Of a stretch of 60,392 bases of DNA, positions 3 through 28,410 are shown one piece after another. Under the pieces are notes generated by a model. It was given only the letters and a program-made list of their open reading frames with translations. It did not search any database and had not been told where the DNA came from. The position numbers and the translations under genes are program-made. Within the stretch, counting starts at the first letter, position 1; every line of letters starts with the position of its first letter. Source of the DNA: Chloroflexota bacterium (GTDB taxonomy: Bacteria > Chloroflexota > Anaerolineae > Caldilineales > Caldilineaceae); contig JBCCHB010000104.1 in assembly GCA_039028975.1 (NCBI GenBank), forward strand, positions 1-60,392. Reading direction: 5' to 3'.

Positions 3-2570
3 ATTAAAGCTGTTGAGAACAAGTCTATTGGGCTGATTCGGGATGAAATCGGATACGACCTAGAACGAAACGGTGGCAGTGCCGTTGAGCGGTGGGGCAA
101 AGGCCACATCCCACCAGAAACCGAGGACATTGAGTCCCTTGCCAGGATTTTCATAAAGAGGGGAAAACTGCCGGAATCCTGGATCAGGAAATTTCTGGAA
201 TATGCAGGCTACCCGAATATCAACGACCTTTGTGCCAATTTGTTCCACGATTCAGATGCTGTTCCTGGTGACATCTACTCCGCAGCAACAAACGGGAATC
301 CAACCGCGCAACCGATACCGGATTCGGTCAACGAACAGTGGCAAACGAAGGTAAATGCCCGTTTGGAACCACAAGGGTACTCGCAGCTTTTTGGCATAGA
401 TGAGTATATTCTACAACTCAACCAGCATCTATTGGAGTTAGACGATATCTGGCTTATTGCTATTCAGGGCATGGGCGGTTTGGGAAAGACCACACTCGCT
501 GACTATGTGGTGCGACAGCCGGAGATGAGCCAACGGTTTGAGGAAATTGCGTGGGTGACGATCAAGAAGCATGGCTATATCCTGGAGGAAGGGAGAGTTA
601 CAGGAGATGACGCCTTTGTGGACAGGGAAGGGATTGTCGAAATGCTCTGTACCCAACTGGGCATCGTACATCATCAGGCATTACCTCCACATCAAAAACA
701 AAACGCCTTGATCACGCATCTGAAACGCGTCCCCTGCCTCATAGTGCTGGATAATCTTGAAGAGCTTCCAGATATGGGGCGTTTTATTCCATTCTTGCAT
801 TCGCTGACCAACCCAAGCAAAATCCTCATCACCAGTCGGCATGCTCTTCCCCAGACATCAGGCATTGCACCTATGGGTATGAAACGCCTGCCCAAAGATC
901 ATGCAACAGCGTTCCTACGCCATTTGTTAGGCAATCATGGCTCTTCTGCTCTAGCTTCCGCGACGGATGCGCAGTTAGGCCAGATGTATGATCGGGTAGG
1001 CGGTCATCCTCTGGCCTTGCGGATGGTTGCCAGCCAGGTGCGTATTTTGTCGCTGCCTGTGGTGCTACAAAATCTGAGCGCAGTGCCTGATGATGAAACG
1101 GATACATTGTACCATTTTCTATATCACAGGTCGTGGGAACTCCTTTCGCCCGATTCGCAGCAGCTACTAGCACTCATGCCGCTAGTGGATAATGGTTCAA
1201 GCGAGCAACTAGCTGCTATCGCTGAACTTAGAATTTCAGAATTGAACACAGCGTTACGTCAGCTAGTCCGCATGTCGCTCATAGAGGTGCGCGGAGGTCT
1301 GGAGGAGAAACGGTATTTTATTTACCGTCTGACCGAAACCTTTCTGCGTAAACAAACCCTTGCATGGAAAGCCCAGCCACATCGTTTTACAGAGTTCCAA
1401 TTCAGGCGTGGCACAGAGCGGAACCTGGATTACTGGCAAGCATGGCTTGAGCAACACAGCCATGAAGTGGACAGGCTGCACCGTGATCAAGCAGGTGTTG
1501 TCAAAGCTATCTGGTATGGATTGGATGTTCCTGATGCATTGCCTTCTGCCTATGCTCTCATTGAGCAGTTTTCACCCTATATGGAGCATCGGGGACATTG
1601 GCAAAGCTGGGGAAACGTGCTTGATACAGCCATAGAAACCGCGCAAGGAACGAACGGTAACGCACAGTTGCCATCGCTTTCTATCTCACATGCGCGTCTG
1701 CTCAGGCATCAGAGCCGCTACCTGGAAGCCGTTTCAGAATATGTCCGTGCTATCCGTCTTTCCCGCCAAGCGAAAGACCGCTATGCCAAGGCAAGGGCAT
1801 GGTCGAATTTAGGTCATCTCTATATTGAACTGGATCGGTGGTGGCGCGCGGAAGTCTTATGTGTTCATTCATTACAGATATTTGAGGAAACGGATAGTGT
1901 TCATGGGCGCGCCCATACGCATAACCATCTTGGTATCCTGTATACCCGCCAATGCAGGTGGGATGTAGCATGGCATCATCTACAGCAGGCTTTGAGTCTG
2001 TGGCAGGAGATGGATGAACTGTATGGCATTGCCGTTGCTAATCTCAATCTGGGCAAACTGGCTAACGATATGCGTATGGAAGCAGTGGAGCCGCCATGCT
2101 CTGCACATGGATTTCTTGAACGGGCCATCGATTATGGCACACAAACGGCGGATGAGGTGGCAGTCGCCATTGCGCGTATGAATTTGGGGATTACCTATAA
2201 GCTGGATGGCGAGTTAGATGAGGCCGAGCGTATCTTTCACGACTCAGCAAAGATTTTTGAGGAATATGGGGATGCCCTTAGCCTTGCCTTAATTTCTGAC
2301 AATCTGGGAGTGATATATGGCGAACGGGGAAACCCAAAGCAGGCGATGCATTATTTGCAAAAAGCCCTTGACAAATGGCGCGCATTGCATAGCCGATACG
2401 GCGAAATACGCACCTTACTCTATTTGGCAGAGTGGGAACTCAAAATCTGGAGCAAAAAGAGCGGGCAAGACTGGCTAGAGAAAGCCGGAGATCTTCTGTC
2501 ACAGGGTAATACAGGAGAGAAATATCCATCGCTACAAAAGACTTTTGAACGACTGAGTAGCAGCCTATGA
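3..2570 (+). CDS. STAND NTPase: N-terminal XRE-like HTH, NB-ARC ATPase, C-terminal TPR repeats. The frame is open to nt 3, so the gene is 5'-truncated by the window.
   Basis: Walker A 'GMGGLGKTTLADYV'; kinase-2/Walker B 'CLIVLDNLEE'; GxP motif 'VGGHPLALRMV'. Multiple TPR-like 'NLG.IY....W..A' repeats in the C-terminal half. The upstream frame reads '...AVERWGKGHIPPETEDIESLARIF...' (HTH-like) with no stop back to nt 3. Confidence 0.85.
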   Translation: MKAVENKSIGLIRDEIGYDLERNGGSAVERWGKGHIPPETEDIESLARIFIKRGKLPESWIRKFLEYAGYPNINDLCANLFHDSDAVPGDIYSAATNGNPTAQPIPDSVNEQWQTKVNARLEPQGYSQLFGIDEYILQLNQHLLELDDIWLIAIQGMGGLGKTTLADYVVRQPEMSQRFEEIAWVTIKKHGYILEEGRVTGDDAFVDREGIVEMLCTQLGIVHHQALPPHQKQNALITHLKRVPCLIVLDNLEELPDMGRFIPFLHSLTNPSKILITSRHALPQTSGIAPMGMKRLPKDHATAFLRHLLGNHGSSALASATDAQLGQMYDRVGGHPLALRMVASQVRILSLPVVLQNLSAVPDDETDTLYHFLYHRSWELLSPDSQQLLALMPLVDNGSSEQLAAIAELRISELNTALRQLVRMSLIEVRGGLEEKRYFIYRLTETFLRKQTLAWKAQPHRFTEFQFRRGTERNLDYWQAWLEQHSHEVDRLHRDQAGVVKAIWYGLDVPDALPSAYALIEQFSPYMEHRGHWQSWGNVLDTAIETAQGTNGNAQLPSLSISHARLLRHQSRYLEAVSEYVRAIRLSRQAKDRYAKARAWSNLGHLYIELDRWWRAEVLCVHSLQIFEETDSVHGRAHTHNHLGILYTRQCRWDVAWHHLQQALSLWQEMDELYGIAVANLNLGKLANDMRMEAVEPPCSAHGFLERAIDYGTQTADEVAVAIARMNLGITYKLDGELDEAERIFHDSAKIFEEYGDALSLALISDNLGVIYGERGNPKQAMHYLQKALDKWRALHSRYGEIRTLLYLAEWELKIWSKKSGQDWLEKAGDLLSQGNTGEKYPSLQKTFERLSSSL

Positions 2571-6542: not shown

Positions 6543-6612
6543 CAAGGCACATTTTCACAGGGCTGCACCAAAACGCAGCCCTTACTATTACACTTACTTC
6601 ACGGAGTATCTC

Positions 6613-7864: not shown

Positions 7865-8617
7865 ATGGATATGAGTCAATGCAAAAGTGATACGGACATA
7901 GTTATTTTTGTCTACGGTGCAATGTTATCATTACGTTCTCAATTACAGGCCAAGATTGTTTTAAAAGTCATTTCGGTCGTTTCATTTGTCATCGCATTTA
8001 TTTGGTTCGTTGTCGAACCAGGTTTCGAGCCGATCCTGGCATTTCTGGGAGGAACCGCAGCCCTAATATCCTCTTTTGTTGATTCTGGTCAACAAAGTAA
8101 CGACGATGAAACAAGCTCTAATTTGGTGAATCAAACGGTTCGGCATGACAAACAGTATGATTATTTGACATCATCGCTACACAAAAAACCAGTCGAAAGA
8201 CCCAAAATCAAGTATAGGCCCACTCAAGATAAGGTAGTGGAAGATAAGCTTTACGATGCATTCATATCGCTAAGAAACCTATCATTCATTATTCTAATAT
8301 TCTCTTTATTCATGGTATGCGTTTTGACAGCAATGATGATTGCCCGGCTAGATGGCATACCGCTGATTGGATTCATCTGGCTAGTGACCATATTTAGCAT
8401 CTTTATATTCATGATGAAGACTCTTTATCGACGAATATCTGTTACGGGTTATTATGGCAAGATAAAGCTTGTTGACACACGAGAAACCATAAAACATTCA
8501 CTACAAAAACGAACCTGGGGAAACGTATTCACTAACATTTATATGGAGGCAGTCATTTCCTTTTTGCTCAAAACTAAGAAAAGGGAAGCTGATAAGCTTA
8601 TGGGCTGGTTTGGATAG
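7865..8617 (+). CDS. Polytopic (about 4-TM) membrane protein of unknown function, translationally coupled to the downstream peptidase.
   Basis: Hydrophobic segments 'IVLKVISVVSFVIAFIWFVV', 'ILAFLGGTAALISSFV', 'LSFIILIFSLFMVCVLTAMMIA', 'IPLIGFIWLVTIFSIFIFMM'. AT-rich codon usage. Stop at 8615-8617, 37 nt before the next ATG. Confidence 0.6.
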   Translation: MDMSQCKSDTDIVIFVYGAMLSLRSQLQAKIVLKVISVVSFVIAFIWFVVEPGFEPILAFLGGTAALISSFVDSGQQSNDDETSSNLVNQTVRHDKQYDYLTSSLHKKPVERPKIKYRPTQDKVVEDKLYDAFISLRNLSFIILIFSLFMVCVLTAMMIARLDGIPLIGFIWLVTIFSIFIFMMKTLYRRISVTGYYGKIKLVDTRETIKHSLQKRTWGNVFTNIYMEAVISFLLKTKKREADKLMGWFG

Positions 8618-8654
8618 AGCCAGCAGTAGGCAGTTTGTTAGGGAGAATTGGATT

Positions 8655-10040
8655 ATGGACAGTTTCGGCAATCAAGAATTGTTATATTTTAATGGCATTA
8701 ATGGTTTTACTGGTGAATATGGATTACCACCCATGTCATACGAAGAATTTGGGGAATTTATACGAAATGAACGGCCACCTCAAAATTTGGGCGACCTTAA
8801 GTTGCGACGTCAGTTAATTGCCAAAGAGAACCTTTATACAAAGGAAGGGGTAGATCCTAAAAAATTATCAGAAGCAGGCTGGGGTATTATTTTTGCTCAT
8901 GACGGTGATCCAAAGATTAAGGAAGCCCTCACCCCCCTTCTTGACCTGCGTTCCCAACAGGCTGGACAATATTTCAAGATTTATGATGGGAACGATGGAT
9001 ACCGACCTAATGAAACAAAAACCAGATTTCTTGCTAGGCATGGAGGTGGCCCTGGCCCAGCAGATCCCGAAAAGGTTCCGTATTACCTGCTGATTGTCGG
9101 CACTCCAGAGGCTATACCCTATCAATTTCAATATTTATTGGATGTACAGTACGCTGTTGGCCGAATTAGTTTTGATACAGTACAAGAATATGAGAATTAT
9201 GCCAAGAGTGTAGTTGCTGCTGAAACAAATGGGATACGAGGTCCAGAACGTTGCTGTTTTTTTGGTACGTCCAACCAAGATGATCGAGCTACGAATTTCA
9301 GTGCAACTCACCTGGTTCAGCCTTTATACAAGGAATTTTCTGGAAATAATCCTACTTGGGAGTCTGAATCCTTCATAGGTACACGGGCTACCAAAACAAA
9401 GCTTAAAGAACTTCTTGGAGGAAAGCAGGCACCTGCCCTTTTGTTTACTGCTACTCACGGTATGGGATTCCCTAAAGAGCATTCTCTTCAGGCCAGCCAT
9501 CAAGGTGCTTTATTATGTCAAAATTGGCCAGGACCAAAAAAGTGGCAACAACCGATCCCACAAGATTTTTACTTTTCAGAAGATGATGTGATCAGTGATG
9601 CAAATATGCTTGGACTTATAATGTTTTGTTTTGCATGTTATTCGGCTGGTACCCCTCTCTATAATGATTTTGACCGAAATCAGAACGAGCCCATTGCGTC
9701 ATCTCCGTTTATTGCAGGTTTGCCAAAAAAAATTCTGGGGAATACAAGTGCTGCTTTAGCTTTTGTTGGTCACATAGAACGAGCTTGGTCATACTCATTT
9801 CTTTGGCCTGGTGTTGGCGAACACACTATTGTCTTTCAGGATGTATTGAAGCGCCTCATTGATGGTCATCCGATTGGATCGGCAATGGAGCCAATTAATC
9901 AACGTTATGCAGAACTTGCAACTGTCACAGATTATTTGAACTCCGAAGATATTGACGATAATATTGGCGTATGGACAGCAAAAAACGACTCGCGTAACTA
10001 TATTATCATCGGTGATCCTGCCGTGCGTGTATCTAGTTGA
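8655..10040 (+). CDS. Clan-CD (caspase/legumain/gingipain-like) cysteine peptidase homolog. The ORF track starts at a TTG at 8610; the ATG at 8655 has a GGGAGA RBS.
   Basis: Putative catalytic His in 'ALLFTATHGMGFP' and Cys in 'MFCFACYSAGTP', ~54 aa apart (HG ... AC.S.G, as in legumain 'DHG...EACESG'). N-terminal beta-strand-like 'YYLLIVGTPEAIP'. Confidence 0.55.
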   Translation: MDSFGNQELLYFNGINGFTGEYGLPPMSYEEFGEFIRNERPPQNLGDLKLRRQLIAKENLYTKEGVDPKKLSEAGWGIIFAHDGDPKIKEALTPLLDLRSQQAGQYFKIYDGNDGYRPNETKTRFLARHGGGPGPADPEKVPYYLLIVGTPEAIPYQFQYLLDVQYAVGRISFDTVQEYENYAKSVVAAETNGIRGPERCCFFGTSNQDDRATNFSATHLVQPLYKEFSGNNPTWESESFIGTRATKTKLKELLGGKQAPALLFTATHGMGFPKEHSLQASHQGALLCQNWPGPKKWQQPIPQDFYFSEDDVISDANMLGLIMFCFACYSAGTPLYNDFDRNQNEPIASSPFIAGLPKKILGNTSAALAFVGHIERAWSYSFLWPGVGEHTIVFQDVLKRLIDGHPIGSAMEPINQRYAELATVTDYLNSEDIDDNIGVWTAKNDSRNYIIIGDPAVRVSS

Positions 10041-10133
10041 GGTGTAACAGAGAATATGTCCACTTGCTCTGATTTGACACTGCAATCAACAGACCATGAC
10101 TGATATAAAGTAAAAATCTCACTCCTTACCAGT

Positions 10134-10664
10134 CTAATTTGGCGCAATCAGATCTGTTACATTGGCAATTGCGCAATTTATGGCATCGCTAGGCTTCAAA
10201 GTAGGATCATGGCAGACCAAATTAGTTAATTCCTCAAATAGAAGCCTGACACCAACCATGTCAATAGGAAGGTGATATGCAAAAATCTGGGAAGCCCCCG
10301 TTTTTTTACGAATATCATCAATTTCAGAGCGAAAATGTAAATCATCGCCACAAGAATTCAAGATGATGAATTGCCCTTTGAAATTATCATGTTGTTCGTT
10401 TAAATCCTTAAGTATGCCCTCATTCAAGCCAGAATTGTGCCCAGCAACGAATACAGTGTTAACTGATGCTTGAGCTAAAGCTTCGATATTTGGGTAAGTC
10501 TCTATTTTTTTTTCTTGTGCATATTTTTCGATTTGTATCCCTGCTTGTATTTGTCTATCATCCAATCTGCGCAAATCTATCCATACTGCCATATTCCATT
10601 TACCATCGGCTCCCATTAGAGGTTGTTCATTAATTAAGTTTCGAATCGTATCTGTGAGGACCAT
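10134..10664 (-). CDS. Minimal (176-aa) CHAT/caspase-like domain protein.
   Basis: 'TVFVAGHNSGLNEG' (His-Gly) and 'QFIILNSCGDD' (Cys), spaced as a caspase-fold dyad. AGGAGA RBS 8 nt upstream of the ATG. Contains an A10 tract (10504-10513). Confidence 0.5.
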   Translation of the reverse strand: MVLTDTIRNLINEQPLMGADGKWNMAVWIDLRRLDDRQIQAGIQIEKYAQEKKIETYPNIEALAQASVNTVFVAGHNSGLNEGILKDLNEQHDNFKGQFIILNSCGDDLHFRSEIDDIRKKTGASQIFAYHLPIDMVGVRLLFEELTNLVCHDPTLKPSDAINCAIANVTDLIAPN

Positions 10665-10696
10665 TTCTGATTCTTCTCCTAATTGTGTTCACTGAC

Positions 10697-12667
10697 TCAA
10701 ATCATAGTCATACTTTTATCTAACAACATCGATATATACGAAAGCCCAGTCTGTAGCGCACGTAGATTATCTTTCTGAATATCAGTTAAATCGTCCCTTC
10801 CTAAAGTAGAATTTATTGCCTCATGGAGTAAGGGTGAAAAACCTTTACTGATTGCTTCGTCTGACTTAGCAAGCTCAATAAATTCATCAAGCACAATTTC
10901 TAGGGTCTCCAGCATCACCATCCCATCATATGCGAAAACGCCGCGGACTCCAGTGCTAGTAATGAACGAACTATCGAAGCGGCGTTGTTCATCATGATCC
11001 ACTGCTAGTATTGCTACATAACATTCCTGAAGGTGTTCAACACTAGTCGCTATAGGCAAGGATGATCTAGAATTTGTATCGAAGGGGGGGATAAAGTCAC
11101 TTTGTTGATTTGCTGAAATATAAAGAGCATTGGAACATCCATCCTCATCGAATTTATTTTGTGTAACAATCCCATTATTATCAGCTAGAGACTTTAGCTG
11201 CGCCAGGCGTTCTGAACTTGCAGGGCCGAATGAATCTTCATCAATTATCAGCGTCAGATTCCAGTTCCCATTGTTGTCCAATACAGGACGTTGGCCCTCA
11301 AGATTAGCTAGTGCAATTATTGGATCATCATCTAGTGAAACATTTTTGACGCCTCGAGTTTTCGCAATCATAGCTAATCCATGCGCGATTCCACGTCGAA
11401 GTTCTCGCTCTGCCTTGTTCGATGTTAGCCCGGTAACGAAAACTAGATTTTCTTGTTTCTCGGAGAATAGAAATTCAAAAACATCTGTAAAGTCAGGAAA
11501 CTCATATTGTAATTCCAGGTTGTAAAGATGTTGTAGACAATAATCTCCGACCGCACATTTTATTTCGACATTTAGATCTGTTAGAGATATACCCTCAAAA
11601 ACCCTAAATTCTCGCCCACGTTGTACTAACAAATACCCATTTAACTCATCGACATAAATAGCGGGGTACCCCTTCATTGTCATGGCCGCAACGCCCAGTC
11701 GATTTCGCAGCCAGTAATCAATTGAAAACGATTTTCCCATAAATGCCCACATGCCATTTGCATTTGTCTTACCTATAGCATCAAGGAAGTTTAGTATTTG
11801 TTGAGCGCCTATATTATCATCGTTAGCGAAGAACGTCCGTCCAAATTCCGATACTGCATCAAATTCTACGTCAATAATTTCACCTTTTTTTGTATGCCAG
11901 AGCGTGAGTTTATCGCCCCACTCTGTTGTACCAGGTGTAACGTCAGTACCATTTTCCCATAATGCGTGGAAAAATTTTTCCTCTGAGCCAACTTCATAAT
12001 TTAATGCACGATTGTTGTAGCCAAATATGTCTAGGTCTGACAGATAGAGTTCTGGTAATGATTTTCTTTGTGTTGGTGTTAGGCTCAGAAGATTTAGAAG
12101 AAGAAATGTTTCTATTTCGTTCCCAGAAAGTTCTTGATAATTTGCTTGACCTCCCCCCCGTAGCTCAAGCAAATTATCAAGAGCTTCCAGGTCTCCAGAA
12201 CTTATACGGGGCCTAAGTAGCTCATACGCATGAGCTATATCTTCATCTACCCAAAAAGGTTGTGGGTAAGCGCTATTAGGTGAGAAAAAATCGTATTCAC
12301 TAATATCGTATTCGCTAATATACATGTCAACTAGCACTACTCTTTTGGTCGTATCATATCTTACACTGTTATCTAGTTGTGATTGTAAAAGTTGTTCCAA
12401 AGCCCTTGAGGTTCCAGTTCTTGCACTAAGGTTGACTAACTCTGGAGATAATCCATTAACCGTAAAAGAGCGACCACCATAGGTAATCATATTACCTGCT
12501 ACCGACCCTCCAACCACCCTAGTACCGGAAGATATTGTCCGTAAAATTTGTCGAATCAGGGAAGCTTGTTGGGTAGGCGATGCGTAAGCAGGTGCAAAAA
12601 AAATTACTGTCAAAATTAAGGTGATGCTAATTATTGTAATTCGTAGGAAATATCTCAACATTATCAC
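10697..12667 (-). CDS. Large secreted protein (656 aa) of unknown function with an N-terminal signal peptide. Operonic with the 176-aa CHAT-like gene.
   Basis: 'MIMLRYFLRITIISITLILTVIFFAPAYASPTQQ' (signal peptide, A-Y-A|S cleavage-like). 32-nt gap to the downstream gene. In-frame 15-bp tandem duplication (ISEYDISEYD) at 12291-12320. Confidence 0.6.
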   Translation of the reverse strand: MIMLRYFLRITIISITLILTVIFFAPAYASPTQQASLIRQILRTISSGTRVVGGSVAGNMITYGGRSFTVNGLSPELVNLSARTGTSRALEQLLQSQLDNSVRYDTTKRVVLVDMYISEYDISEYDFFSPNSAYPQPFWVDEDIAHAYELLRPRISSGDLEALDNLLELRGGGQANYQELSGNEIETFLLLNLLSLTPTQRKSLPELYLSDLDIFGYNNRALNYEVGSEEKFFHALWENGTDVTPGTTEWGDKLTLWHTKKGEIIDVEFDAVSEFGRTFFANDDNIGAQQILNFLDAIGKTNANGMWAFMGKSFSIDYWLRNRLGVAAMTMKGYPAIYVDELNGYLLVQRGREFRVFEGISLTDLNVEIKCAVGDYCLQHLYNLELQYEFPDFTDVFEFLFSEKQENLVFVTGLTSNKAERELRRGIAHGLAMIAKTRGVKNVSLDDDPIIALANLEGQRPVLDNNGNWNLTLIIDEDSFGPASSERLAQLKSLADNNGIVTQNKFDEDGCSNALYISANQQSDFIPPFDTNSRSSLPIATSVEHLQECYVAILAVDHDEQRRFDSSFITSTGVRGVFAYDGMVMLETLEIVLDEFIELAKSDEAISKGFSPLLHEAINSTLGRDDLTDIQKDNLRALQTGLSYISMLLDKSMTMI

Positions 12668-15874: not shown

Positions 15875-16636
15875 ATGTATACACAGCATCCAGTGTTCAT
15901 GCCCCCTGAAAACGATAGCGCTCGGATTTGGCGATATTTAGATTTCACAAAACTAGTGTCACTATTTGAATCACAATCGCTCTTCTTCGCTCGTACAGAC
16001 AAACTCGGTGATCCCTTTGAGGGATCTTGGCCACAAAAAAACTTGCGCGTGGTAAGAGATAACCTTCCCGATATTCCTGTTGACAAGCATGAAATCTATT
16101 TTATGGACGTGGCCAACATTAGCAATCTCTTGAAAAAGTGGGCAGAGTGCAATGCGATCAGTTGTTGGCATCTAAATGAGCAAGAATCCGCGGCAATGTG
16201 GAGACTATATCTTAAGAGTGATGAGGGAATTGCAATTCAATCGACATTTGCACGTCTTCGTGATTCGATAACCGATGACAGAACCGTTTACATTGGAACA
16301 GTCCGCTACATTGATTATGAGACAGATTGGTTTGATCCAATTAACCTTTACGAGGCTCTGCTACACAAAAGAAAAAGCTTTGAACATGAGAGAGAATTGA
16401 GGGCTGTTGTCACAGCAATATCAACCGGTCCAGAGGAAAGAGAAATCGACTTTAGCAAGTCAGAAATTACTGATGGAATCAAGATCGCTGTGAATGTTAA
16501 TATGCTGATTGAAAATATTTACGTAGCTCCTGATGCGCCAACATGGTTTACGGATCTCGTGAGTTCTATTGTCAACAGGTACAAATACAAGTTCAATGTC
16601 CAACAATCGAAGTTGTCTGAGAGACCAATCTACTAA
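15875..16636 (+). CDS. DUF2971-family protein (abortive-infection-associated family).
   Basis: 'IWRYLDFTKLVSLFESQSLFFARTDKLGDPFEG' matches the DUF2971 N-terminal signature (YrY.s...l..l....l.fs....fNDPfE). Confidence 0.55.
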   Translation: MYTQHPVFMPPENDSARIWRYLDFTKLVSLFESQSLFFARTDKLGDPFEGSWPQKNLRVVRDNLPDIPVDKHEIYFMDVANISNLLKKWAECNAISCWHLNEQESAAMWRLYLKSDEGIAIQSTFARLRDSITDDRTVYIGTVRYIDYETDWFDPINLYEALLHKRKSFEHERELRAVVTAISTGPEEREIDFSKSEITDGIKIAVNVNMLIENIYVAPDAPTWFTDLVSSIVNRYKYKFNVQQSKLSERPIY

Positions 16637-16737
16637 ACGAGAACGATCCGATATATACATGGCACCGCTTTCATTTTCAATGAATCATGTGTTTATGCTT
16701 TGTCCTGCACCTTGGGCGAGCTGTGCCAAACGCATAT

Positions 16738-18351
16738 CTAACCTAATACAAACCTAATATCGCTGGGATTTACATTTTCAGATGATATTAGTCTAACTTG
16801 CTCTGAGCCACCAAGGTTCTCCATTAATAACTCCGCTTGGGCAAGAATGTATGCTTCGTTCATATTCCGTCCTGAAGCAATAGACTCGTAAAAAGCAGAA
16901 GCAAAGGCAATGGCAGACACATTTTCTATCTCACCCTCAATACCAATAACACAGTCAACATGACACGATATCTGCGTTGCTTGAGTATGTGAGTAACAAG
17001 AATTTAGTACTACACAACGGATATCGCCCTTAAATCCTCTAAAAATTTCGCTGAGTGTATGAGGCTCTACCCGATGATAAGTTCCTGTGTTATTTTCAAA
17101 GAGTAATGCCCCATTCTTTACGCCATGTCCACTAAAGTGAACTATAGTGGGTCTATAGTAAAGTAAATACCGTAAGACGTCTCTCGCTTTAGTCGCCCAT
17201 ATTTGCTGAATCGTAAATTGTTGTCCATAAATAGCCCGATTCAATGATTCAAAAATTTCTCTATGCTCTTTTCCGAGCTGAAGCCAAACCCTATCAGAGG
17301 GTTCGGCAGCTAAACAAAGTATTACATTTTTTTCAATATGATTGTCGTTTGATTTAGGCTGAAACTGTTGTTCTATAGTGATCGAATAAGACTCTAATTC
17401 AGGATGTTTATTCCCCAATTCATACACGAGTTGATGTGCGTCCTTCTCCGAAAGTTCTAACGTAACACGCACACTACCGGAGCTAATATTTTGCAAGAAA
17501 ACTCTCTCTGAATCTATGTCGGCAGCAGCACAAATAGCTGCGATTAAATCATCGAGATGTTTAGGTGTATAGGTAGCTATATCATTTGGGATGGATATGG
17601 TAATCTGACCACGTGATCGGTCTTTGCGTAAACGGTCGATAGCATCTTGCAAGAATTCAACATCAGCCGAGTTTTCCCGCTTGCTAAACATGTCTTGGGT
17701 ATTGTGACGACTGTTGTTAGTATCCACCTCATTAGTCAGAAGAGTATACCCAAGTTCTTGCCGTTCTCTGGTACCTATCGGGTCCCAACCCCACTCCTCT
17801 TCTAATATAGTCCATACCTCTTCAAAAAACTCAGGATTCTGGCTTAATCGCAGAGTATCCAAGAGATACATTATAAAGGAAAAGCGACGCGTGGCGCGAG
17901 GTTTGGCTATACCTTGCTCCCATGCTGCAACTGTTTTTCGAGCCTGTCGGCCGGTTAGACCTAACATTTTTGCTGCTTCAGCTTGTGATAGCCCAACCCC
18001 TTCGCGTAGCTGACACAGAATTTGAAGACGAGACGTAGTGGAACGTTGATTGCGATCTCTTGAGGAAAAATCTTCATTAAGTGCTTTTAGAGTTGGGTTC
18101 CCTGGATTATAGTCATGTGCACTTTGGATCAATTCATAAACTCGATCTGTCGCAACAGACCATTCGATGAGGCTAGATACGATTGATGCCAGATTGCTAC
18201 CAGATGCAATCCTATCCAGGGATACGTTCATCTCTACTTGAACCATCATGCGCAAAGCATCTTTGGTTCGGTAGCCATCCAGGAGCGCTTCCTTAATCTG
18301 TTTTATTTGAGAACCGTCCGGCTTCATATGGCTCTCTGTCTTACCTTCCAC
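16738..18351 (-). CDS. Effector-associated-domain (EAD-like) + HTH + C-terminal CHAT/caspase-like domain protein.
   Basis: N-terminus 'IKQIKEALLDGYRTKDALRMMVQVEMNVSLDRIASGSNLASIVSSLIEWS...NPGNPTL' is EAD-like. Central 'LSQAEAAKMLGLTGRQARKTVAAWEQG' is an HTH. C-terminal 'TIVHFSGHGVKNGALLF' (His) and 'IRCVVLNSCYSH' (Cys) form a caspase-fold dyad. Confidence 0.6.
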   Translation of the reverse strand: MEGKTESHMKPDGSQIKQIKEALLDGYRTKDALRMMVQVEMNVSLDRIASGSNLASIVSSLIEWSVATDRVYELIQSAHDYNPGNPTLKALNEDFSSRDRNQRSTTSRLQILCQLREGVGLSQAEAAKMLGLTGRQARKTVAAWEQGIAKPRATRRFSFIMYLLDTLRLSQNPEFFEEVWTILEEEWGWDPIGTRERQELGYTLLTNEVDTNNSRHNTQDMFSKRENSADVEFLQDAIDRLRKDRSRGQITISIPNDIATYTPKHLDDLIAAICAAADIDSERVFLQNISSGSVRVTLELSEKDAHQLVYELGNKHPELESYSITIEQQFQPKSNDNHIEKNVILCLAAEPSDRVWLQLGKEHREIFESLNRAIYGQQFTIQQIWATKARDVLRYLLYYRPTIVHFSGHGVKNGALLFENNTGTYHRVEPHTLSEIFRGFKGDIRCVVLNSCYSHTQATQISCHVDCVIGIEGEIENVSAIAFASAFYESIASGRNMNEAYILAQAELLMENLGGSEQVRLISSENVNPSDIRFVLG

Positions 18352-18696
18352 CCGATAACGACGGGTAATACTCTATCACTAAATAATAATCCGCTCGACT
18401 TCATCAAGACTGATCGCATTACTCGTTCTATCATGAATCCTGGTTACATCTGGTGAAGAATCAATGAATATGGTGAACGTGTCCTGCTCTGCTTCTTGAG
18501 TTAATGCCGGAATGTGTGCAGAAGCGGCGACCGCAAGATCCTAGGGTTTTGAATGGAGCGACAAGTGCGTTTGGCATGACACATTCTCCAGCGGGAATTA
18601 TACTTCATGACCAGGGATTGTGTCTACGAGAGTGTTTAGCATAAAGCGGCTTATGTTATATGTTAAGGAAGGTTAATGTGGGGATGCTCCAGGCTT

Positions 18697-19080
18697 TTAT
18701 CGGATCGTTTTTACTTGACACAGACTCAGGGTCTCCCAAGATCTATCGGCAGTGACGGCGATAAACTTGCGGCTGCAAGCGACGGCAAGGCAAGCACGAT
18801 CGCCAAAGGATAAACCAGCCTGTTTCGTCATTGGGCGCAATCGTCCTGCTTCCCAGGATAACTGACGATCAAAATCAACGATATTTCCGATACCGATCAC
18901 AGAAATTATCGTCGTCACATCCGCTTCGCTCACGCCTTTCTCCAAGAGTTTTGCAATGACTTCGGAAAGGTTGACTGAGCATATGACAGATGCAGGTATC
19001 AGTGGGGTGACTGCATCACTTCCTGTCTCATCATTGAGTAGCGCAAGCACTGCGGATGCATCCAGAATAAAATCAATCAT
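18697..19080 (-). CDS. vapC: VapC PIN-domain toxin.
   Basis: 'MIDFILDASAVLALLNDE' (PIN N-terminal Asp) and 'LSFGDRACLAVA'. 8-nt overlap with the upstream antitoxin. Confidence 0.8.
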   Translation of the reverse strand: MIDFILDASAVLALLNDETGSDAVTPLIPASVICSVNLSEVIAKLLEKGVSEADVTTIISVIGIGNIVDFDRQLSWEAGRLRPMTKQAGLSFGDRACLAVACSRKFIAVTADRSWETLSLCQVKTIR

Positions 19081-19321
19081 CTCCTGCCTCTTGTCGGCGA
19101 TCCGTAATTAATTCATCGACAAGAGGTGTGTCTGGAGGCAGATATTGGCGCAGAAGCTTCTGCGCCTTTTTCACGGCTTGATCGTGTGAAATAAGCCGCA
19201 ATTGCCCATTCTCCAGGATCAGGGTCAGTGCATCGCCGATCTGTAATCCTAACTCTTTACGAATAGATGCAGGAATCACGATGCGGTTCCCGTGCATAAT
19301 TTTGGCAGCCTCAGAAATCAT
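19073..19321 (-). CDS. vapB: AbrB/SpoVT-type VapB antitoxin.
   Basis: 'GNRIVIPASIRKELGLQIGDALTLILENGQLRL' is a swapped-hairpin AbrB/MazE-like fold. Confidence 0.75.
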   Translation of the reverse strand: MISEAAKIMHGNRIVIPASIRKELGLQIGDALTLILENGQLRLISHDQAVKKAQKLLRQYLPPDTPLVDELITDRRQEAGDD

Positions 19322-19668: not shown

Positions 19669-19968
19669 ATGAAGACGTATTCTGCGATGACCAGCCGTTC
19701 CAATACCGATAAACAGCAACGTAAGATACAGATGGACAGGGAAATCCTGGACGTAGACGGAGCCGCCGCTTTGCTAGGCGTTTCCAAACGCACCATCTAT
19801 AAGCTAGTCAGTGATGGAGAACTGCCAGCCAAGAAAGTTGGCAAGGAATGGCGATTCTCCAAGAAAAAGCTTGTGGAGTGGGTCACACAGGGCGAACCAC
19901 AGGGGAATACCGATTCTGCCGAAGCGCTCCTTAAAAATCCTAATATCCGCTTTGGTTCGCGTTCATGA
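19669..19968 (+). CDS. Excisionase/AlpA-like HTH (HTH_17) DNA-binding protein.
   Basis: 'LDVDGAAALLGVSKRTIYKLVSDGELPAKKVGKEWRFSKKKLVEWV' matches the excisionase-family HTH. Confidence 0.65.
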   Translation: MKTYSAMTSRSNTDKQQRKIQMDREILDVDGAAALLGVSKRTIYKLVSDGELPAKKVGKEWRFSKKKLVEWVTQGEPQGNTDSAEALLKNPNIRFGSRS

Positions 19969-26394: not shown

Positions 26395-28410
26395 CTAAAA
26401 GTCGAGCGCTTCATCAATAATCTCATTACTCTCCCGGACCGTATCATACTCACTACGAGCCTCTTCTAGAATGCGACCGATACCTTCGATGCGTTCGCTC
26501 AGCTCTTCGTCACTTTGGCTCGATTGCCAAGCCTGCCTTAGTAGATCTTCGAAGGATTTGGCCCCCTCGATATTTCCTAAGATCAGGTCGAGTTCCCCAA
26601 TCACCAGCTCGAACATACGGATCTTGCGGGCCAAAAGCTCAATGACGTGAGACTCAATGGTCTCATTGCAGGATAGGTTAAATATGGTCACATCATGAAT
26701 TTGGCCGAGGCGGTGGAGACGTCCAATGCGCTGCTCGACCCGCATAGGATTCCACGGCAGGTCATAGTTGATGAGCTGATGGCAGAATTGGAGATTGCGC
26801 CCTTCTGCACCGCTCTCGGTAGAGACCATCACGCGCATCCCTTCTTCACCTTCATCTCGAAATGCTGCGACCGCGGCCTCTTTCTGCTGAATGCTCATAC
26901 CGCCATGGAACCCGGTTGTAGGGATGTTCAGTTCGTTGAGCCGATTGACGATGGTCTCCTGAGTTTGCCGGTACTCAGTAAAGATGAGGAATTTGCCCGG
27001 AAACTGTTCCAGTAGTTCTTCTACAGCAACCAACTTCCGCCCGATAGGAATAGAACGGGCTAGATCTAAAAATTCCTGTAACTCAACCCGAGCATCATCG
27101 CTGTAGGCCCGATCATTGACCATCTTCTGGAGCGTGGAAGCGACGGCTTGAGGGCTACTGCTTAACTCGCGTTGTAGGATCGTCAGCGTTAGGCGCAGAA
27201 ACTTGCTATTTTCTGTGTTGCGGAAGCGTTTGCGGATATAGTCCGTAACGTCTTGGTAGAGCTTAAATTCGGCTTCACTAAGCGTTAAATGGTAGATGGC
27301 TGCTTGTCGCTTGGGGAATTGAACGTCCACTTTGCTGCGACGGTTGCGAATCATTACATCATTAAGCAAATGACGCAGGGATTGGGCATTTCTGGGTTGT
27401 CGTTTATCAGCTTGATCCAAAAAGTGGCGGCGGAAGGCTCGAGCCGTACCTAATTGTCCAGGTGAAAGAATGGTAATGAGGCTGTACAGCTCCAGGAGAT
27501 CATTCTGAACCGGCGTGGCCGTCAACATAAGAATGTAGCGCTTACGGATTTTGTTGACGAATTGCCAGGCTTGGGTACTACGATTTTTTAACTTATGAGC
27601 TTCATCGATGATGAGCAGGTCGTAATCCCGTGCCAGAATAACGTCACTATGGTCTCGACGTTTGGCCCGATCGATGGACGTAATCCAGCGACCGCTCTCT
27701 TCTTGGGCCAGAGCACGCCATTCAGCTGGCTTGTTGATGACGGTAAAGCGTTCGTTGAACTTGCCTTCCAACTCTTCGCGCCACTGTTCAGTTAAAGATG
27801 CAGGCGTCAACACCAGCACTGTACGCACGAGGCCACGCTGAATCAACTCCTTCATAATGATGCCGGCTTCAATGGTTTTACCTAATCCGACCTCATCCGC
27901 CAGAAGCGCACGGCCTCGCATATCGTTAAGCGCCTGGTGAACTGCTTGGATCTGGTGTTCATAATGCTCTACATTAATAGAGTCGAGGCAAATCAACTGG
28001 TCAAAGCCGGTGCTAAGGCTCAGCTCTTCTGCCTCTAATCGAAGCTGGTAGAGAGGTAGTGGCTCAGGCATCCGGATACGACCATGAGTACGAAAGAAGT
28101 TGGTCAGATTTTGAGGTGTCTCAATGACCCTTGGTGGCAACGTAACGCCAAAACGAGCGATCTTCTCTGCCATTTCGTGATCAATGTTGTACCGATACCC
28201 ACAGCGGAAACAAGCTGTTGCCTCTTCTTCATCAAGCCAGTTGCATTGAGGACAGCGCTTACCCATGACCGTCGGGGTCACCTTCTCTGTCTTATTCAGC
28301 TCTTTCTCAGCTTCGTCTGGTATTTCAAGCCATTCAAACCGCTCTTGCATTGGGATAGATAGGTCCTTACGATGCCCGCCGATCTGCGGGGATCTTGGTT
28401 TTGGCAGCAA
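26395..28410 (-). CDS. SNF2-family helicase with N-terminal zinc ribbon. Alternative start is Met at ~28350.
   Basis: 'CPQCNWLDEEEATACFRCGY' (Zn ribbon); 'LADEVGLGKTIEAG' (motif I); 'LLIIDEAHKLKN' (DExH); 'NYDLPWNPMRVEQRIGRLHRLGQ' (motif VI). Confidence 0.85.
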   Translation of the reverse strand: MLPKPRSPQIGGHRKDLSIPMQERFEWLEIPDEAEKELNKTEKVTPTVMGKRCPQCNWLDEEEATACFRCGYRYNIDHEMAEKIARFGVTLPPRVIETPQNLTNFFRTHGRIRMPEPLPLYQLRLEAEELSLSTGFDQLICLDSINVEHYEHQIQAVHQALNDMRGRALLADEVGLGKTIEAGIIMKELIQRGLVRTVLVLTPASLTEQWREELEGKFNERFTVINKPAEWRALAQEESGRWITSIDRAKRRDHSDVILARDYDLLIIDEAHKLKNRSTQAWQFVNKIRKRYILMLTATPVQNDLLELYSLITILSPGQLGTARAFRRHFLDQADKRQPRNAQSLRHLLNDVMIRNRRSKVDVQFPKRQAAIYHLTLSEAEFKLYQDVTDYIRKRFRNTENSKFLRLTLTILQRELSSSPQAVASTLQKMVNDRAYSDDARVELQEFLDLARSIPIGRKLVAVEELLEQFPGKFLIFTEYRQTQETIVNRLNELNIPTTGFHGGMSIQQKEAAVAAFRDEGEEGMRVMVSTESGAEGRNLQFCHQLINYDLPWNPMRVEQRIGRLHRLGQIHDVTIFNLSCNETIESHVIELLARKIRMFELVIGELDLILGNIEGAKSFEDLLRQAWQSSQSDEELSERIEGIGRILEEARSEYDTVRESNEIIDEALDF

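What the first reader, a model, noticed from the sequence alone, without database searches (positions are those of the whole stretch)
15875..18351. EAD-HTH-CHAT effector next to a DUF2971 protein, with no adjacent NTPase
The 537-aa minus-strand protein begins with a block resembling the effector-associated domains (EADs) that, in NTP-dependent conflict systems, tether effectors to STAND/AAA+ sensors. It continues with an XRE-type HTH and ends in a caspase/CHAT-like domain ('HFSGHG' ... 'VLNSCYS'). It converges on a DUF2971 gene, a family recurrent in abortive-infection loci. No cognate EAD-bearing NTPase is adjacent. The only STAND NTPase in the window (HTH-NB-ARC-TPR at 3-2570) is 14 kb away and its N-terminus is an HTH, not an EAD. 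The effector may therefore be orphaned, or may pair in trans with a sensor outside the window.
Basis: partly seen in the sequence, partly recalled or inferred. Interest (0 to 1): 0.6.

Follow-up and report, generated by a model that had tools for sequence, protein, structure and literature searches.

The report
Four-module EAD1 caspase-like defence effector
This gene from a Chloroflexota metagenome genome encodes a caspase-like "suicide/defence" protease built from four known modules (EAD1 adaptor, STAND-type HTH, TRADD-like switch, CHAT protease), so it is a new member of an already described class, and its DUF2971 neighbour is most likely an unrelated stand-alone defence gene.

Summary
Window 16738-18327(-), 529 aa from the ATG (537 aa from the GTG at 18351), has Pfam EAD1 (59 bits, cutoff 24), a sub-threshold XRE-type HTH, and CHAT (33 bits, cutoff 24). 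Its His401/Cys444 dyad is kept in 96-98% of 123 homologs.

- **Middle domain:** residues ~236-322 form a TRADD-like_N domain (beta-alpha-beta-beta-alpha-beta, invariant Gly-Ser turn). Homologs reach Pfam PF20694's cutoff; the window copy does not.
- **HTH module:** it is the specific ~95-aa N-terminal module of HTH-NB-ARC/NACHT-TPR STAND NTPases (~50% identity), not a generic HTH.

No second EAD1 lies on the contig, which is the whole record. Simple EAD1-CHAT effectors sit next to a STAND NTPase (3 of 3); in two, that NTPase carries a matching EAD1 (41% and 84% identical). The closest TRADD-CHAT relatives are solo genes in regions rich in mobile elements. The contig's own NB-ARC-TPR gene is cut at its HTH by the contig edge, so an EAD there cannot be excluded.

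DUF2971 (PADLOC PDC-S31, Aristaios-like ADP-ribosyltransferase) is convergent and not conserved beside relatives, so it is probably independent.

The class, including unlinked EAD1 effectors, was described by Kaur et al. 2020/2021. NCBI already names the protein "EAD1-containing". Verdict: ordinary-to-moderate interest.

The parts
16738..18327 (-). CDS of the 529-aa EAD1-HTH-TRADD-like_N-CHAT protein (stop codon 16738-16740). An alternative GTG start at 18351 gives 537 aa. NCBI MEM7132100.1.
   Evidence: ORF list; 529-aa product called in Logan and NCBI; codon positions checked.
18052..18327 (-). EAD1 adaptor domain, residues 1-92.
   Evidence: Pfam PF19955 at 59.2 bits vs cutoff 24.2. 45 of the top 150 exhaustive-search hits align here. 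The closest EAD1s sit mostly on TIR/FGE-sulfatase effectors.
17752..18033 (-). HTH plus helical extension ('HTH-ext'), residues 99-192. An XRE-type HTH of the kind found at the N-terminus of STAND NTPases.
   Evidence: HTH_3 at 21.7 bits, sub-threshold. 105 of the top 150 exhaustive hits align here at 40-56% identity, nearly all at residues ~5-100 of the hit. Of 57 long hits, 40 have TPR_12, 37 AAA_16, 35 NB-ARC, 13 NACHT.
17623..17751 (-). Polar linker, residues 193-235, including a predicted helix just before the TRADD-like domain.
   Evidence: No family hit. Low pLDDT, with an N-terminal helix in both models.
17362..17622 (-). TRADD-like_N domain, residues 236-322. Invariant Gly284-Ser285 (codons 17473-17478) lies in the beta2-beta3 turn.
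16741..17361 (-). CHAT caspase-like protease domain, residues 323-529. Catalytic His401 (17125-17127) and Cys444 (16996-16998).
   Evidence: Pfam CHAT at 33 bits vs cutoff 24. Dyad conserved in 96% and 98% of 123 sequences. AF2 pLDDT 80-97. Foldseek best hit is the SAVED-CHAT filament 8TL0 at E 1.5e-10, then separase and caspases.
18597..18626 (-). Best promoter-like site upstream of the gene (TAGACA-18-TATAAT, 11 of 12).
   Evidence: Consensus scan. The number of sites in the region is not above the shuffled expectation, so this is only a candidate.
15875..16636 (+). Convergent neighbour: a DUF2971 / PDC-S31 family protein, 253 aa (245 aa from the ATG at 15899). A predicted DarT/AbiGi-like ADP-ribosyltransferase and probably an independent one-gene defence.
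   Evidence: Pfam DUF2971 at 18.2 bits, below the 22 cutoff; PADLOC PDC-S31 at 2.6e-22. E170-H-E172 motif seen in the sequence. Literature. Not found next to relatives.
3..2570 (+). HTH-NB-ARC-TPR STAND NTPase, N-terminally truncated by the contig edge. The only STAND on the contig and an unproven candidate partner.
   Evidence: Pfam NB-ARC 9.1e-17 and TPR_12 2.1e-25. The frame is open from base 3. The contig is the whole record. Its visible HTH is unrelated to HTH-ext (HMM score 0.9; hhalign probability 0.3%).

Best explanation
The gene encodes a conflict-system (abortive-infection or apoptosis-like) protease of the class Kaur et al. describe as EAD-coupled / bacterial TRADD-N caspase effectors. 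Its architecture is EAD1 - STAND-type HTH - TRADD-like_N - CHAT.

Shown here: the four modules, the intact and conserved His/Cys dyad, the caspase fold, and the absence of any second EAD1 on the 60-kb contig.

Inferred mechanism:
1. The protein is kept inactive as a monomer, with the TRADD-like domain bridging its flanking parts.
2. On infection it is recruited by a homotypic EAD1-EAD1 contact to an EAD1-bearing NTPase core (STAND, MoxR-vWA-VMAP or GAP1 type) encoded elsewhere in the genome.
3. Oligomerisation of that core brings CHAT domains together and switches on proteolysis, as filament formation does for SAVED-CHAT, the nearest solved structure.
4. Proteolysis leads to growth arrest or death of the infected cell.

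The HTH-ext module most likely binds DNA, either for autoregulation or tethering, or as a transcriptional output released by cleavage.

The DUF2971 gene is a separate single-gene ADP-ribosyltransferase-type defence. It shares only the low-GC, mobile-element-rich island, which also holds an integrase, a Tn3 fragment, VapBC, RPA, Toprim and ParA.
For: - Domain calls.
- Dyad conservation.
- EAD principle: two canonical pairs seen directly. In L088, EAD1-CHAT is followed 29 bp later by EAD1-NB-ARC-TPR, with the two EAD1s 84% identical. In L093, EAD1-CHAT lies next to EAD1-NACHT, 41% identical. A third effector (P0044, L091) lies next to an AAA_16-TPR STAND in which no EAD1 was detected.
- Unlinked EAD1 effectors, and the correlation with a cognate EAD on a core component elsewhere in the genome, are stated in PMC7159879.
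- The TRADD-N switch model and the EAD1...TRADD-N...caspase architectures are in PMC8195603.
- Oligomerisation-activated CHAT: 8TL0 is the best structural match, with its mechanism.
- Lineage: a Chloroflexota MAG whose closest module relatives come from filamentous Caldilineaceae. That fits the reported enrichment in multicellular bacteria.
- Independence of DUF2971.
Against: - No partner has been identified. The contig has no second EAD1.
- In 1.84 billion representative proteins, the best single EAD1 matches are only ~45-51% identical. They are mostly TIR/FGE-sulfatase effectors from other organisms, not NTPases.
- The four closest relatives of the TRADD-CHAT module are all solo genes with no adjacent NTPase gene; one of them carries a NACHT fused in cis. 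This could mean the module works without a separate NTPase.
- The window's own TRADD-like_N match is below Pfam's cutoff (13.4 bits).
- Nothing about activity, substrates or DNA binding was or could be tested here.
Confidence: 0.5

Rival explanations
1. A self-contained sensor-effector that needs no NTPase. The HTH-ext, or the TRADD-like domain, senses invader DNA or a protein cue directly and releases the CHAT protease. EAD1 then serves only for self-association or optional recruitment.
For: All four closest relatives of the TRADD-like_N-CHAT module are solo genes with very different N-termini (wHTH, cyclophilin, NACHT in cis, Ubl-Hint) and no adjacent NTPase gene. No close cognate EAD1 was found anywhere. 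Kaur 2021 proposes that TRADD-N switches flanking domains on signal reception.
Against: EAD1 domains are defined by paired occurrence with core components. Two canonical EAD1-CHAT genes have an adjacent STAND with a matching EAD1, and a third has an adjacent STAND without a detected EAD1. In other proteins the HTH-ext module is the N-terminal (output-side) domain of STAND NTPases, not a known sensor.
Confidence: 0.22
2. It pairs with the NB-ARC-TPR STAND at window 3-2570. In this reading that gene's missing N-terminus carries an EAD (an EAD-HTH-NB-ARC-TPR architecture like P0270), and the two genes have been separated by about 13.5 kb of inserted DNA.
For: The canonical partner type is EAD1-NB-ARC-TPR (L088). 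P0270 shows EAD(1/7)-HTH-NB-ARC. The window STAND is cut by the contig edge exactly at its HTH. Kaur 2021 reports TRADD-N proteins in neighbourhoods with AP-ATPase-TPR STANDs. The intervening DNA contains methyltransferases, low-GC blocks, Tn3 and integrase remnants.
Against: No EAD is visible. Its HTH is not of the HTH-ext family (HMM score 0.9; hhalign probability 0.3%). The genes are about 13.5 kb apart, on opposite strands, with at least 10 ORFs between them. Similarity to the L088 partner is only generic NB-ARC/TPR at 26-29%.
Confidence: 0.1
3. A stranded remnant. A domain-shuffled effector was left without its partner after mobile-element rearrangements and is no longer functional.
For: The architecture is a singleton. 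No homolog covers more than 54% of the protein among 5.8 billion sequences, and only P0270 shares the EAD+HTH tandem. It is flanked by a Tn3 transposase fragment and an integrase. The GC of the gene (0.39-0.48) lies mostly below the contig mean of 0.477, with GC3 of 0.30-0.47 in every part of the gene.
Against: The 529-codon ORF is intact, with every conserved CHAT position, the dyad, the G-S turn and the HTH-ext signature residues retained. A plausible promoter lies upstream.
Confidence: 0.1
4. A two-gene system with DUF2971. The CHAT protease and the DUF2971 ADP-ribosyltransferase act together, for example by protease activation of the toxin.
For: The genes are only 101 bp apart and share low GC. 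Both families occur in defence contexts.
Against: The convergent orientation rules out an operon. No closest TRADD-CHAT relative (L082-L085) or canonical EAD1-CHAT locus (L088-L093) has a DUF2971 neighbour. PADLOC lists PDC-S31 with its 'S'-series models. A single DUF2971 gene (Aristaios) is sufficient for abortive infection.
Confidence: 0.04
5. A mobile-element transcriptional regulator: an XRE repressor fused to a protease, with self-cleavage on induction as in LexA/CI.
For: It has an XRE-type HTH and sits in a plasmid-like or integrative segment with RPA, Toprim, ParA, VapBC and an integrase.
Against: The HTH is of the STAND-N-terminal type, not a phage-repressor type. EAD1 and TRADD-like_N are conflict-system adaptors. 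No palindromic operator stands out upstream. Relatives of the constant module lack any HTH.
Confidence: 0.04

Closest known systems
Bacterial TRADD-N proteins with EAD or HTH N-termini and caspase C-termini (Kaur, Iyer, Burroughs, Aravind, eLife 2021, PMC8195603; first noted in eLife 2020, PMC7159879)
   Same: The TRADD-like RRM-fold domain carries the Gly-Ser beta2-beta3 turn and sits at the junction of a variable N-terminal part (EAD1, HTH) and a caspase-superfamily domain. Members occur in filamentous or multicellular lineages and change architecture rapidly between relatives.
   Different: The HTH here is an XRE-type STAND-N-terminal module, not the ECF-like HTH mentioned in the paper. EAD1 and HTH occur in tandem before TRADD-N. 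The window's own match to Pfam TRADD-like_N is below cutoff. No AP-ATPase-TPR or EACC2 gene is adjacent.
Canonical two-gene EAD1 pairs: EAD1-CHAT next to EAD1-NB-ARC-TPR or EAD1-NACHT (e.g. loci L088 and L093 fetched here; 'EAD principle' of Kaur et al. 2020)
   Same: An N-terminal EAD1 on a ~190-aa CHAT protease of the same subfamily (37-42% identity in the CHAT part).
   Different: Those effectors are ~310 aa with no HTH and no TRADD-like domain. Their partner NTPase, with a 41-84% identical EAD1, is the adjacent gene. Here no EAD1 partner exists within the 60-kb contig.
SAVED-CHAT of the Haliangium ochraceum type III-B CRISPR/CBASS module (PDB 8TL0; Steens et al., bioRxiv 10.1101/2023.06.23.546230)
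   Same: Closest solved structure of the protease domain (Foldseek E 1.5e-10, ~22% identity). It is a defence protease activated by oligomerisation.
   Different: There is no SAVED sensor and no cyclic-oligonucleotide or CRISPR context. The input here would be EAD1/TRADD-mediated rather than nucleotide-mediated.
HTH-NB-ARC/NACHT/nSTAND-TPR STAND NTPases (e.g. MEZ4869333.1, Caldilineaceae 'NB-ARC domain-containing protein', cluster of P0162)
   Same: They share the ~95-aa HTH-ext module at 40-56% identity, with signature RLxIL..LRE.AGLSQ...W(E)xG..P..RR..FI.YL.D.L.L...P..F..VW..L.EEWxW.P.
   Different: In those proteins the module is the extreme N-terminus and is followed by a P-loop NTPase and TPRs. 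Here it is internal and followed by TRADD-like_N-CHAT, with no NTPase.
Aristaios / PADLOC PDC-S31 (DUF2971 single-gene abortive-infection systems; PMC11381338, PMC12522546). Applies to the neighbouring gene only.
   Same: PDC-S31 profile match at 2.6e-22. It is a DUF2971-type predicted ADP-ribosyltransferase with an ExE motif, of similar size (253 vs 316 aa), encoded on a mobile or plasmid-like segment.
   Different: The Pfam DUF2971 score is below cutoff. No activity data exist. It comes from a distant lineage (Chloroflexota vs Lactococcus).

Membership tests
EAD1 (Pfam PF19955; Kaur et al. 2020) | Significant match to the EAD1 profile over its full length | tested here: met
   59.2 bits vs cutoff 24.2, profile positions 1-89 of 90. 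45 of the top 150 exhaustive hits align to residues 1-90, and 34 of 35 scanned are Pfam EAD1.
EAD1 (Pfam PF19955; Kaur et al. 2020) | Small non-enzymatic domain at a protein terminus, fused to an effector or signalling domain | tested here: met
   It starts at Met1 and is followed downstream by a CHAT protease.
EAD1 (Pfam PF19955; Kaur et al. 2020) | [quoted passage not shown] | tested here: not met
   phmmer and an EAD1 HMM run on all six-frame ORFs of the whole 60,392-bp contig hit only the gene itself. Pfam on 30 other ORFs found no EAD, MoxR, vWA, VMAP or GAP1.
EAD1 (Pfam PF19955; Kaur et al. 2020) | A cognate EAD on a core component somewhere in the same genome | not testable with these tools
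   Only this contig of the MAG is available. The exhaustive search found no EAD1 above ~51% identity and none traceable to the same MAG.
CHAT / caspase-like clan CD peptidase (Pfam PF12770) | Profile match above the curated cutoff | tested here: met
   33 bits vs cutoff 24. PADLOC chat 3.9e-6 and SAVED_CHAT 7.4e-6, CHAT part only.
CHAT / caspase-like clan CD peptidase (Pfam PF12770) | Catalytic His ... Cys dyad after the conserved beta strands | tested here: met
   His401 (HFSGHG) and Cys444 (LNSC) are present, and conserved in 96% and 98% of 123 aligned modules.
CHAT / caspase-like clan CD peptidase (Pfam PF12770) | Caspase/hemoglobinase fold | tested here: met
   AF2 pLDDT is 80-97 over the domain. 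Foldseek hits are SAVED-CHAT 8TL0 at E 1.5e-10, then separase, caspases 6/7/9 and DdvA.
CHAT / caspase-like clan CD peptidase (Pfam PF12770) | Proteolytic activity | not testable with these tools
   Needs biochemistry.
TRADD-N superfamily (Pfam PF20694 TRADD-like_N; Kaur et al. 2021) | Significant profile match | tested here: inconclusive
   The window copy scores 13.4 bits (E 0.069), below the 23.7 cutoff. Its four clear homologs (jackhmmer E 1e-29 to 1e-56) score 27.8, 23.9, 19.8 and 18.0 on the same profile region. One also hits NCOA6_TRADD-N at E 0.019.
TRADD-N superfamily (Pfam PF20694 TRADD-like_N; Kaur et al. 2021) | RRM-like beta-alpha-beta-beta-alpha-beta two-layer fold | tested here: met
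TRADD-N superfamily (Pfam PF20694 TRADD-like_N; Kaur et al. 2021) | Conserved 'uS' (tiny residue + Ser) motif in the beta2-beta3 turn | tested here: met
   Gly284-Ser285 is invariant in all 5 family members and lies between the two central strands of the model.
TRADD-N superfamily (Pfam PF20694 TRADD-like_N; Kaur et al. 2021) | Single copy between two other globular regions, at the junction of the variable and constant parts | tested here: met
   The N-termini differ completely among the query, P0001, P0002, P0003 and P0014, while TRADD-like_N + CHAT is constant.
XRE-type HTH (Pfam HTH_3) / STAND-N-terminal HTH-ext module | Profile match to HTH_3 | tested here: inconclusive
   21.7 bits vs cutoff 23. 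23 of 57 homologous modules reach E<=0.001 for HTH_3.
XRE-type HTH (Pfam HTH_3) / STAND-N-terminal HTH-ext module | Homology to the N-terminal module of HTH-STAND-TPR NTPases | tested here: met
   105 of the top 150 exhaustive hits, at 40-56% identity, mostly at residues ~5-100 of the hit. They carry NB-ARC, AAA_16, NACHT, nSTAND and TPR downstream. A local HMM gives 126 bits for the query.
SAVED-CHAT (CBASS / type III CRISPR effector) | SAVED cyclic-oligonucleotide sensor domain N-terminal to CHAT | tested here: not met
   The PADLOC SAVED_CHAT match covers only profile positions 293-448 of 498, the CHAT part. The N-terminal modules are EAD1, HTH and TRADD-like.
DUF2971 / PADLOC PDC-S31 / Aristaios (neighbour gene) | Profile match | tested here: inconclusive
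   Pfam DUF2971 at 18.2 bits, below the 22 cutoff. PADLOC PDC-S31 model PDLC04993 at 2.6e-22, with three further PDC-S31 models at 1e-5 to 1e-7.
DUF2971 / PADLOC PDC-S31 / Aristaios (neighbour gene) | ART-type catalytic motif III (ExE) | tested here: met
   E170-H-E172, in '...KRKSFEHERELR...', lies inside the Pfam-matched stretch 108-176. The motif definition comes from PMC12522546. The assignment is by inspection only.

The most novel reading that the evidence does not exclude
The HTH-ext module is otherwise the N-terminal output domain of STAND NTPases. In this reading it is not a passive DNA tether here but a second input or coupling domain. Either it senses invader DNA and, through the TRADD-like switch, triggers the CHAT protease without any NTPase, giving a self-contained DNA-triggered bacterial caspase. 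Or it makes homotypic contacts with HTH-STAND-TPR NTPases, so that one effector bridges two kinds of core system (EAD1-type and HTH-STAND-type). A related possibility comes from locus L082: the TRADD-like_N-CHAT unit may spread as a C-terminal cassette that recombines into resident genes and captures their N-termini.
Probability: 0.12. Interest if true: 0.6.

Novelty: new member of a known kind. Interest (0 to 1): 0.3.

Why it matters
If the model is right, this is a compact candidate for testing two ideas that so far rest on comparative genomics:
- **Homotypic EAD1 coupling in trans:** the effector and its core would be encoded apart.
- **The proposed TRADD-N 'switch':** the conserved Ser285 would gate a caspase-like protease.

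The tandem of EAD1 with a STAND-derived HTH is an unrecorded combination. No protein among about 5.8 billion aligns over more than 54% of its length. It shows how these systems are rebuilt from modules of both effectors and sensors.

It does not change the picture already drawn by Kaur et al. 2020/2021, and the DUF2971 adjacency adds nothing beyond co-location in a defence and mobile-element island.

Tried and rejected
- **Word-index homolog searches** with the N-terminal 200 aa and with the middle domain alone returned nothing. The exhaustive HMMER search was needed instead.
- **PLSDB megablast** of window 14-24 kb found no match.
- **Exact look-up of the 537-aa GTG product** failed; the 529-aa ATG product is the one on record.
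With middle domain + CHAT it returned 80 CHAT loci, only one with an EAD1 (L054), so it gave no base rate for EAD1 pairing.
- **Full-length alignment for structure prediction (A5):** MAFFT misplaced the EAD1 and HTH segments, so it was dropped. Only the middle domain and middle domain + CHAT were modelled.
- **Extending the left contig edge in JGI metagenomes** gave no match.
- **HTH-ext as an operon-level adaptor:** only two HTH-ext-STAND loci were recovered. Neither has a second HTH-ext, EAD1 or CHAT gene within 10 kb, so there is no support, but n=2.
- **Relationship between the window STAND's HTH and HTH-ext:** rejected.
- **Operator-like repeats upstream of the gene or a terminator between the convergent genes:** nothing notable.
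- **Compositional seam inside the gene:** only mild (middle domain + CHAT GC 0.39-0.41 vs EAD1/HTH 0.44-0.48), so not conclusive.
- **NCBIfam:** no family reached its cutoff for either protein.

Full report
**1. Observation**

They converge with 101 bp between them.

Pfam on the minus-strand protein, in 537-aa numbering:

| Family | Bits | Cutoff | Residues |
|---|---|---|---|
| EAD1 (PF19955) | 59.2 | 24.2 | 9-95 (profile 1-89 of 90) |
| CHAT (PF12770) | 33 | 24 | 346-510 |
| HTH_3 | 21.7 | 23 | 114-154 |

Four other HTH families are also weakly hit.

The EAD1 match begins exactly at the first ATG (18327). NCBI and Logan both call the 529-aa product from that ATG. I use 529-aa numbering from here on.

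The quoted motifs hold His401 (HFSGHG) and Cys444 (LNSC). In an alignment of 123 CHAT modules from the homolog search they are conserved in 96% and 98% of sequences.

The DUF2971 call is weaker than stated. Pfam gives 18.2 bits against a cutoff of 22. A PADLOC PDC-S31 model supports it at 2.6e-22.

**2. Source and setting**

The window is an entire 60,392-bp contig of a Chloroflexota MAG. The protein is NCBI MEM7132100.1, already named "effector-associated domain EAD1-containing protein". The same locus is present on a 24-kb Logan contig (L001).

The gene lies in a low-GC stretch. The gene itself has GC 0.39-0.48, the 1-kb windows covering 15-18 kb are 0.41-0.43, and the contig mean is 0.477. 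It sits among mobile-element and plasmid-type genes:
- a Tn3 transposase fragment
- a tyrosine integrase
- VapBC
- an HTH_17 protein
- an SprT-like protein
- replication initiator RPA
- a Toprim primase
- ParA

The rest of the contig carries housekeeping-type genes: DnaB, SelA, an RseP-like M50 peptidase and ABC transporters. It has no MoxR, vWA, VMAP or GAP1-type core genes.

**3. What the protein is made of**

*C-terminal half.* The word-index search matched only the C-terminal ~54%. The ~190-aa CHAT module is fused in other proteins to EAD1, EAD7, EAD8, TIR, receiver and many other domains. It is most frequent in filamentous cyanobacteria, Chloroflexi and myxobacteria.

*Middle domain.* Four relatives also share the ~90 residues before CHAT: P0001, P0002, P0003 and P0014. 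Their N-termini are entirely different: helical/wHTH-like (by eye), cyclophilin, NACHT and Ubl-Hint. So [middle domain + CHAT] is a constant module under a variable N-terminus.

The evidence that the middle domain is a TRADD-like_N domain:
- It has an invariant Gly-Ser-Val (Gly284-Ser285).
- AF2 models it as beta-alpha-beta-beta-alpha-beta with the Gly-Ser in the beta2-beta3 hairpin. Confidence is only moderate: pLDDT 62, and 54-71 in the larger model.
- Kaur et al. 2021 define the TRADD-N superfamily by an RRM-like fold, a conserved "uS" motif in the beta2-beta3 turn, and a position between variable and constant regions. They note that its profiles also touch ACT, dystroglycan and acylphosphatase domains (PMC8195603).
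- A permissive Pfam scan links the family directly to PF20694 TRADD-like_N. All five sequences hit the same profile region: 27.8 and 23.9 bits reach the 23.7 cutoff, then 19.8, 18.0, and 13.4 for the window copy. One member also touches NCOA6_TRADD-N.

I therefore assign a TRADD-like_N domain at family level. The window copy alone is sub-threshold, and TRADD itself never appeared in the structure hit lists.

*N-terminal 200 residues.* These have no word-sharing relatives. An exhaustive phmmer search of 1.84 billion representatives gave 1,779 hits, falling into two separate classes.
- **EAD1 class.** Residues 1-90 match EAD1 domains. Their carriers are mostly TIR and FGE-sulfatase effectors. 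Only one of 35 scanned is an NB-ARC protein. Named members come from Caldilinea/Caldilineaceae.
- **HTH-ext class.** Residues ~99-192 match, at 40-56% identity, a module that nearly always sits at residues ~5-100 of the hit. Of 57 long hits, 40 have TPR_12, 37 AAA_16, 35 NB-ARC, 13 NACHT and 12 nSTAND1. An example is a Caldilineaceae "NB-ARC domain-containing protein".

So the HTH is the N-terminal HTH-plus-extension module ("HTH-ext") of STAND NTPases. Invariant Trp and Arg positions define it.

One hit, P0270, carries both modules followed by a P-loop NB-ARC. Pfam calls its first domain EAD7 at sub-threshold; Kaur et al. report EAD7 as related to EAD1. STAND NTPases with the same EAD-HTH N-terminal tandem therefore exist.

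*Protease domain.* The CHAT domain is modelled confidently (pLDDT 80-97). Its closest solved structure is the activated SAVED-CHAT filament 8TL0 (E 1.5e-10), followed by separase, caspases 6/7/9 and the CHAT domain of DdvA.

The resulting architecture is:

| Module | Residues (529-aa numbering) |
|---|---|
| EAD1 | 1-92 |
| HTH-ext | 99-192 |
| Linker | 193-235 |
| TRADD-like_N | 236-322 |
| CHAT | 323-529 |

**4. The partner question**

On the contig, phmmer and purpose-built HMMs for EAD1 and HTH-ext hit only this gene in all six frames.

Three of three EAD1-CHAT relatives of ~310-450 aa lie directly beside a STAND NTPase:
- P0083 is followed 29 bp downstream by an EAD1-NB-ARC-TPR protein.
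- P0087 lies next to an EAD1-NACHT protein.
- P0044 lies next to a 1,297-aa AAA_16-TPR protein, in which no EAD1 was detected.

Paired EAD1s are close: 84% identity for P0083 and its partner, 41% for P0087 and its partner. This agrees with the published rule that adjacent EAD copies are each other's closest relatives.

By that yardstick a cognate for the window protein should stand out. The best single EAD1 matches in the exhaustive search are ~45-51% identical. They lie on effectors from other organisms. This negative is limited in two ways: the library is clustered at 50% identity, and the MAG is probably incomplete.

The four closest relatives of the TRADD-CHAT module are all solo genes, in housekeeping or mobile-element-rich contexts. 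One of them has the NTPase fused in cis (P0003, NACHT).

The literature states that EAD1 effectors are commonly dispersed, with up to 19-22 EAD1 proteins per genome. It also reports that their presence correlates with a cognate EAD on a core component elsewhere in the genome. An unlinked EAD1 effector is thus not in itself unusual.

The contig's only STAND (3-2570, NB-ARC + TPR) is open to base 3, and the contig ends there. Its N-terminus is unknown. Its visible HTH is unrelated to HTH-ext (HMM score 0.9; hhalign probability 0.3%). The gene is also ~13.5 kb away on the other strand. I could not extend the edge. I rate this partner hypothesis at about 0.1.

**5. The DUF2971 neighbour**

DUF2971 is predicted to be a DarT/AbiGi-like ADP-ribosyltransferase (PMC12522546). 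A single DUF2971 gene, Aristaios, confers abortive infection on its own (PMC11381338).

The window protein matches PADLOC PDC-S31 and has an E170-H-E172 motif. The orientation is convergent, and no relative's locus has a DUF2971 gene. I treat it as an independent defence gene sharing an island.

**6. Mechanism**

*Shown:*
- four modules
- an intact, conserved catalytic dyad
- a caspase fold
- no partner on the contig

*Inferred from Kaur et al. 2020/2021 and the SAVED-CHAT work:*
1. The TRADD-like domain holds the flanking parts in an inactive state.
2. EAD1 recruits the protein by homotypic contact to an EAD1-bearing NTPase core encoded elsewhere.
3. Core oligomerisation brings CHAT domains together and activates proteolysis.
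4. The cell arrests or dies.

The HTH-ext most likely binds DNA, for autoregulation, tethering, or as a released transcriptional output. No operator-like repeat was evident upstream.

Confidence in the architecture is high. Confidence in the trans-pairing mechanism is about 0.5. The main rival, at about 0.22, is a self-contained effector that needs no NTPase, in line with the solo relatives.

**7. Comparison and novelty**

The protein belongs to the described class of bacterial TRADD-N / EAD-coupled caspase effectors. It differs from the canonical EAD1-CHAT + EAD1-STAND pairs in three ways:
- two extra modules
- the lack of an adjacent partner
- an HTH that is otherwise part of the sensor NTPases

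No protein in the 5.8-billion set matches over more than 54% of its length. Singleton architectures are, however, the norm in this class.

I file it as a new member of a known kind, with interest 0.3.

The most novel reading not excluded is that HTH-ext acts as a DNA-sensing or second coupling domain, or that TRADD-CHAT spreads as a recombining cassette (see L082). I give this probability ~0.12.

Noticed in passing
L082:1752-3403 (Logan SRR23272290 contig, relative P0002): The cyclophilin-TRADD-like_N-CHAT fusion gene is followed directly by a 91-aa gene that is 89% identical to residues 84-157 of the fusion's own cyclophilin domain. The middle+CHAT segment has GC 0.40, against 0.49 and 0.53 for its flanks. 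This suggests the TRADD-CHAT unit arrived as a cassette that recombined into a resident PPIase gene and displaced its 3' end, much like the orphan modules of Rhs/CDI loci.
   Followed up: partly
window 26395-31089 (-): Three consecutive genes: an SNF2 helicase (PADLOC DrmD/BrxH-like, 3e-84), a TerB-domain protein, and a 463-aa protein with weak Major-Vault-Protein shoulder/repeat hits. Possibly another defence cluster.
   Followed up: partly
window 7865-12667: A low-GC block (0.38-0.42) encoding a 250-aa protein with a weak membrane-protein (DUF2244) hit, a 476-aa Peptidase_C25-like (gingipain family) protein, and 176-aa and 656-aa proteins with no family hits in Pfam or PADLOC.
   Followed up: partly
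window 3689-7269: Three DNA methyltransferase genes in a row (Dam-like, N6_Mtase, N6_N4_Mtase). No restriction endonuclease was recognised among the ORFs scanned.
   Followed up: no
window 3-2570 (+): The HTH-NB-ARC-TPR STAND NTPase runs off the contig start. Its N-terminus is unknown, and its visible HTH belongs to a different family from the effector's HTH-ext.
   Followed up: yes
proteins P0121, P0122, P0124, P0259 (exhaustive-search hits): Some proteins carry 3-7 tandem EAD1 copies; P0121, 989 aa, has seven. They may be scaffolds that recruit several EAD1 effectors.
   Followed up: no
L088:1104-4572, L093:2893-6601, L091:627-5987: Textbook pairs of an EAD1-CHAT effector with a STAND NTPase. 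In L088 the two EAD1 domains are 84% identical over 109 residues, and the genes are 29 bp apart.
   Followed up: yes
window 18697-19321 (-) and 19669-19968 (+): A VapB/VapC (MazE-like antitoxin + PIN) pair lies immediately upstream of the effector gene, followed by an HTH_17 (excisionase-like) gene. These are typical mobile-element cargo.
   Followed up: no
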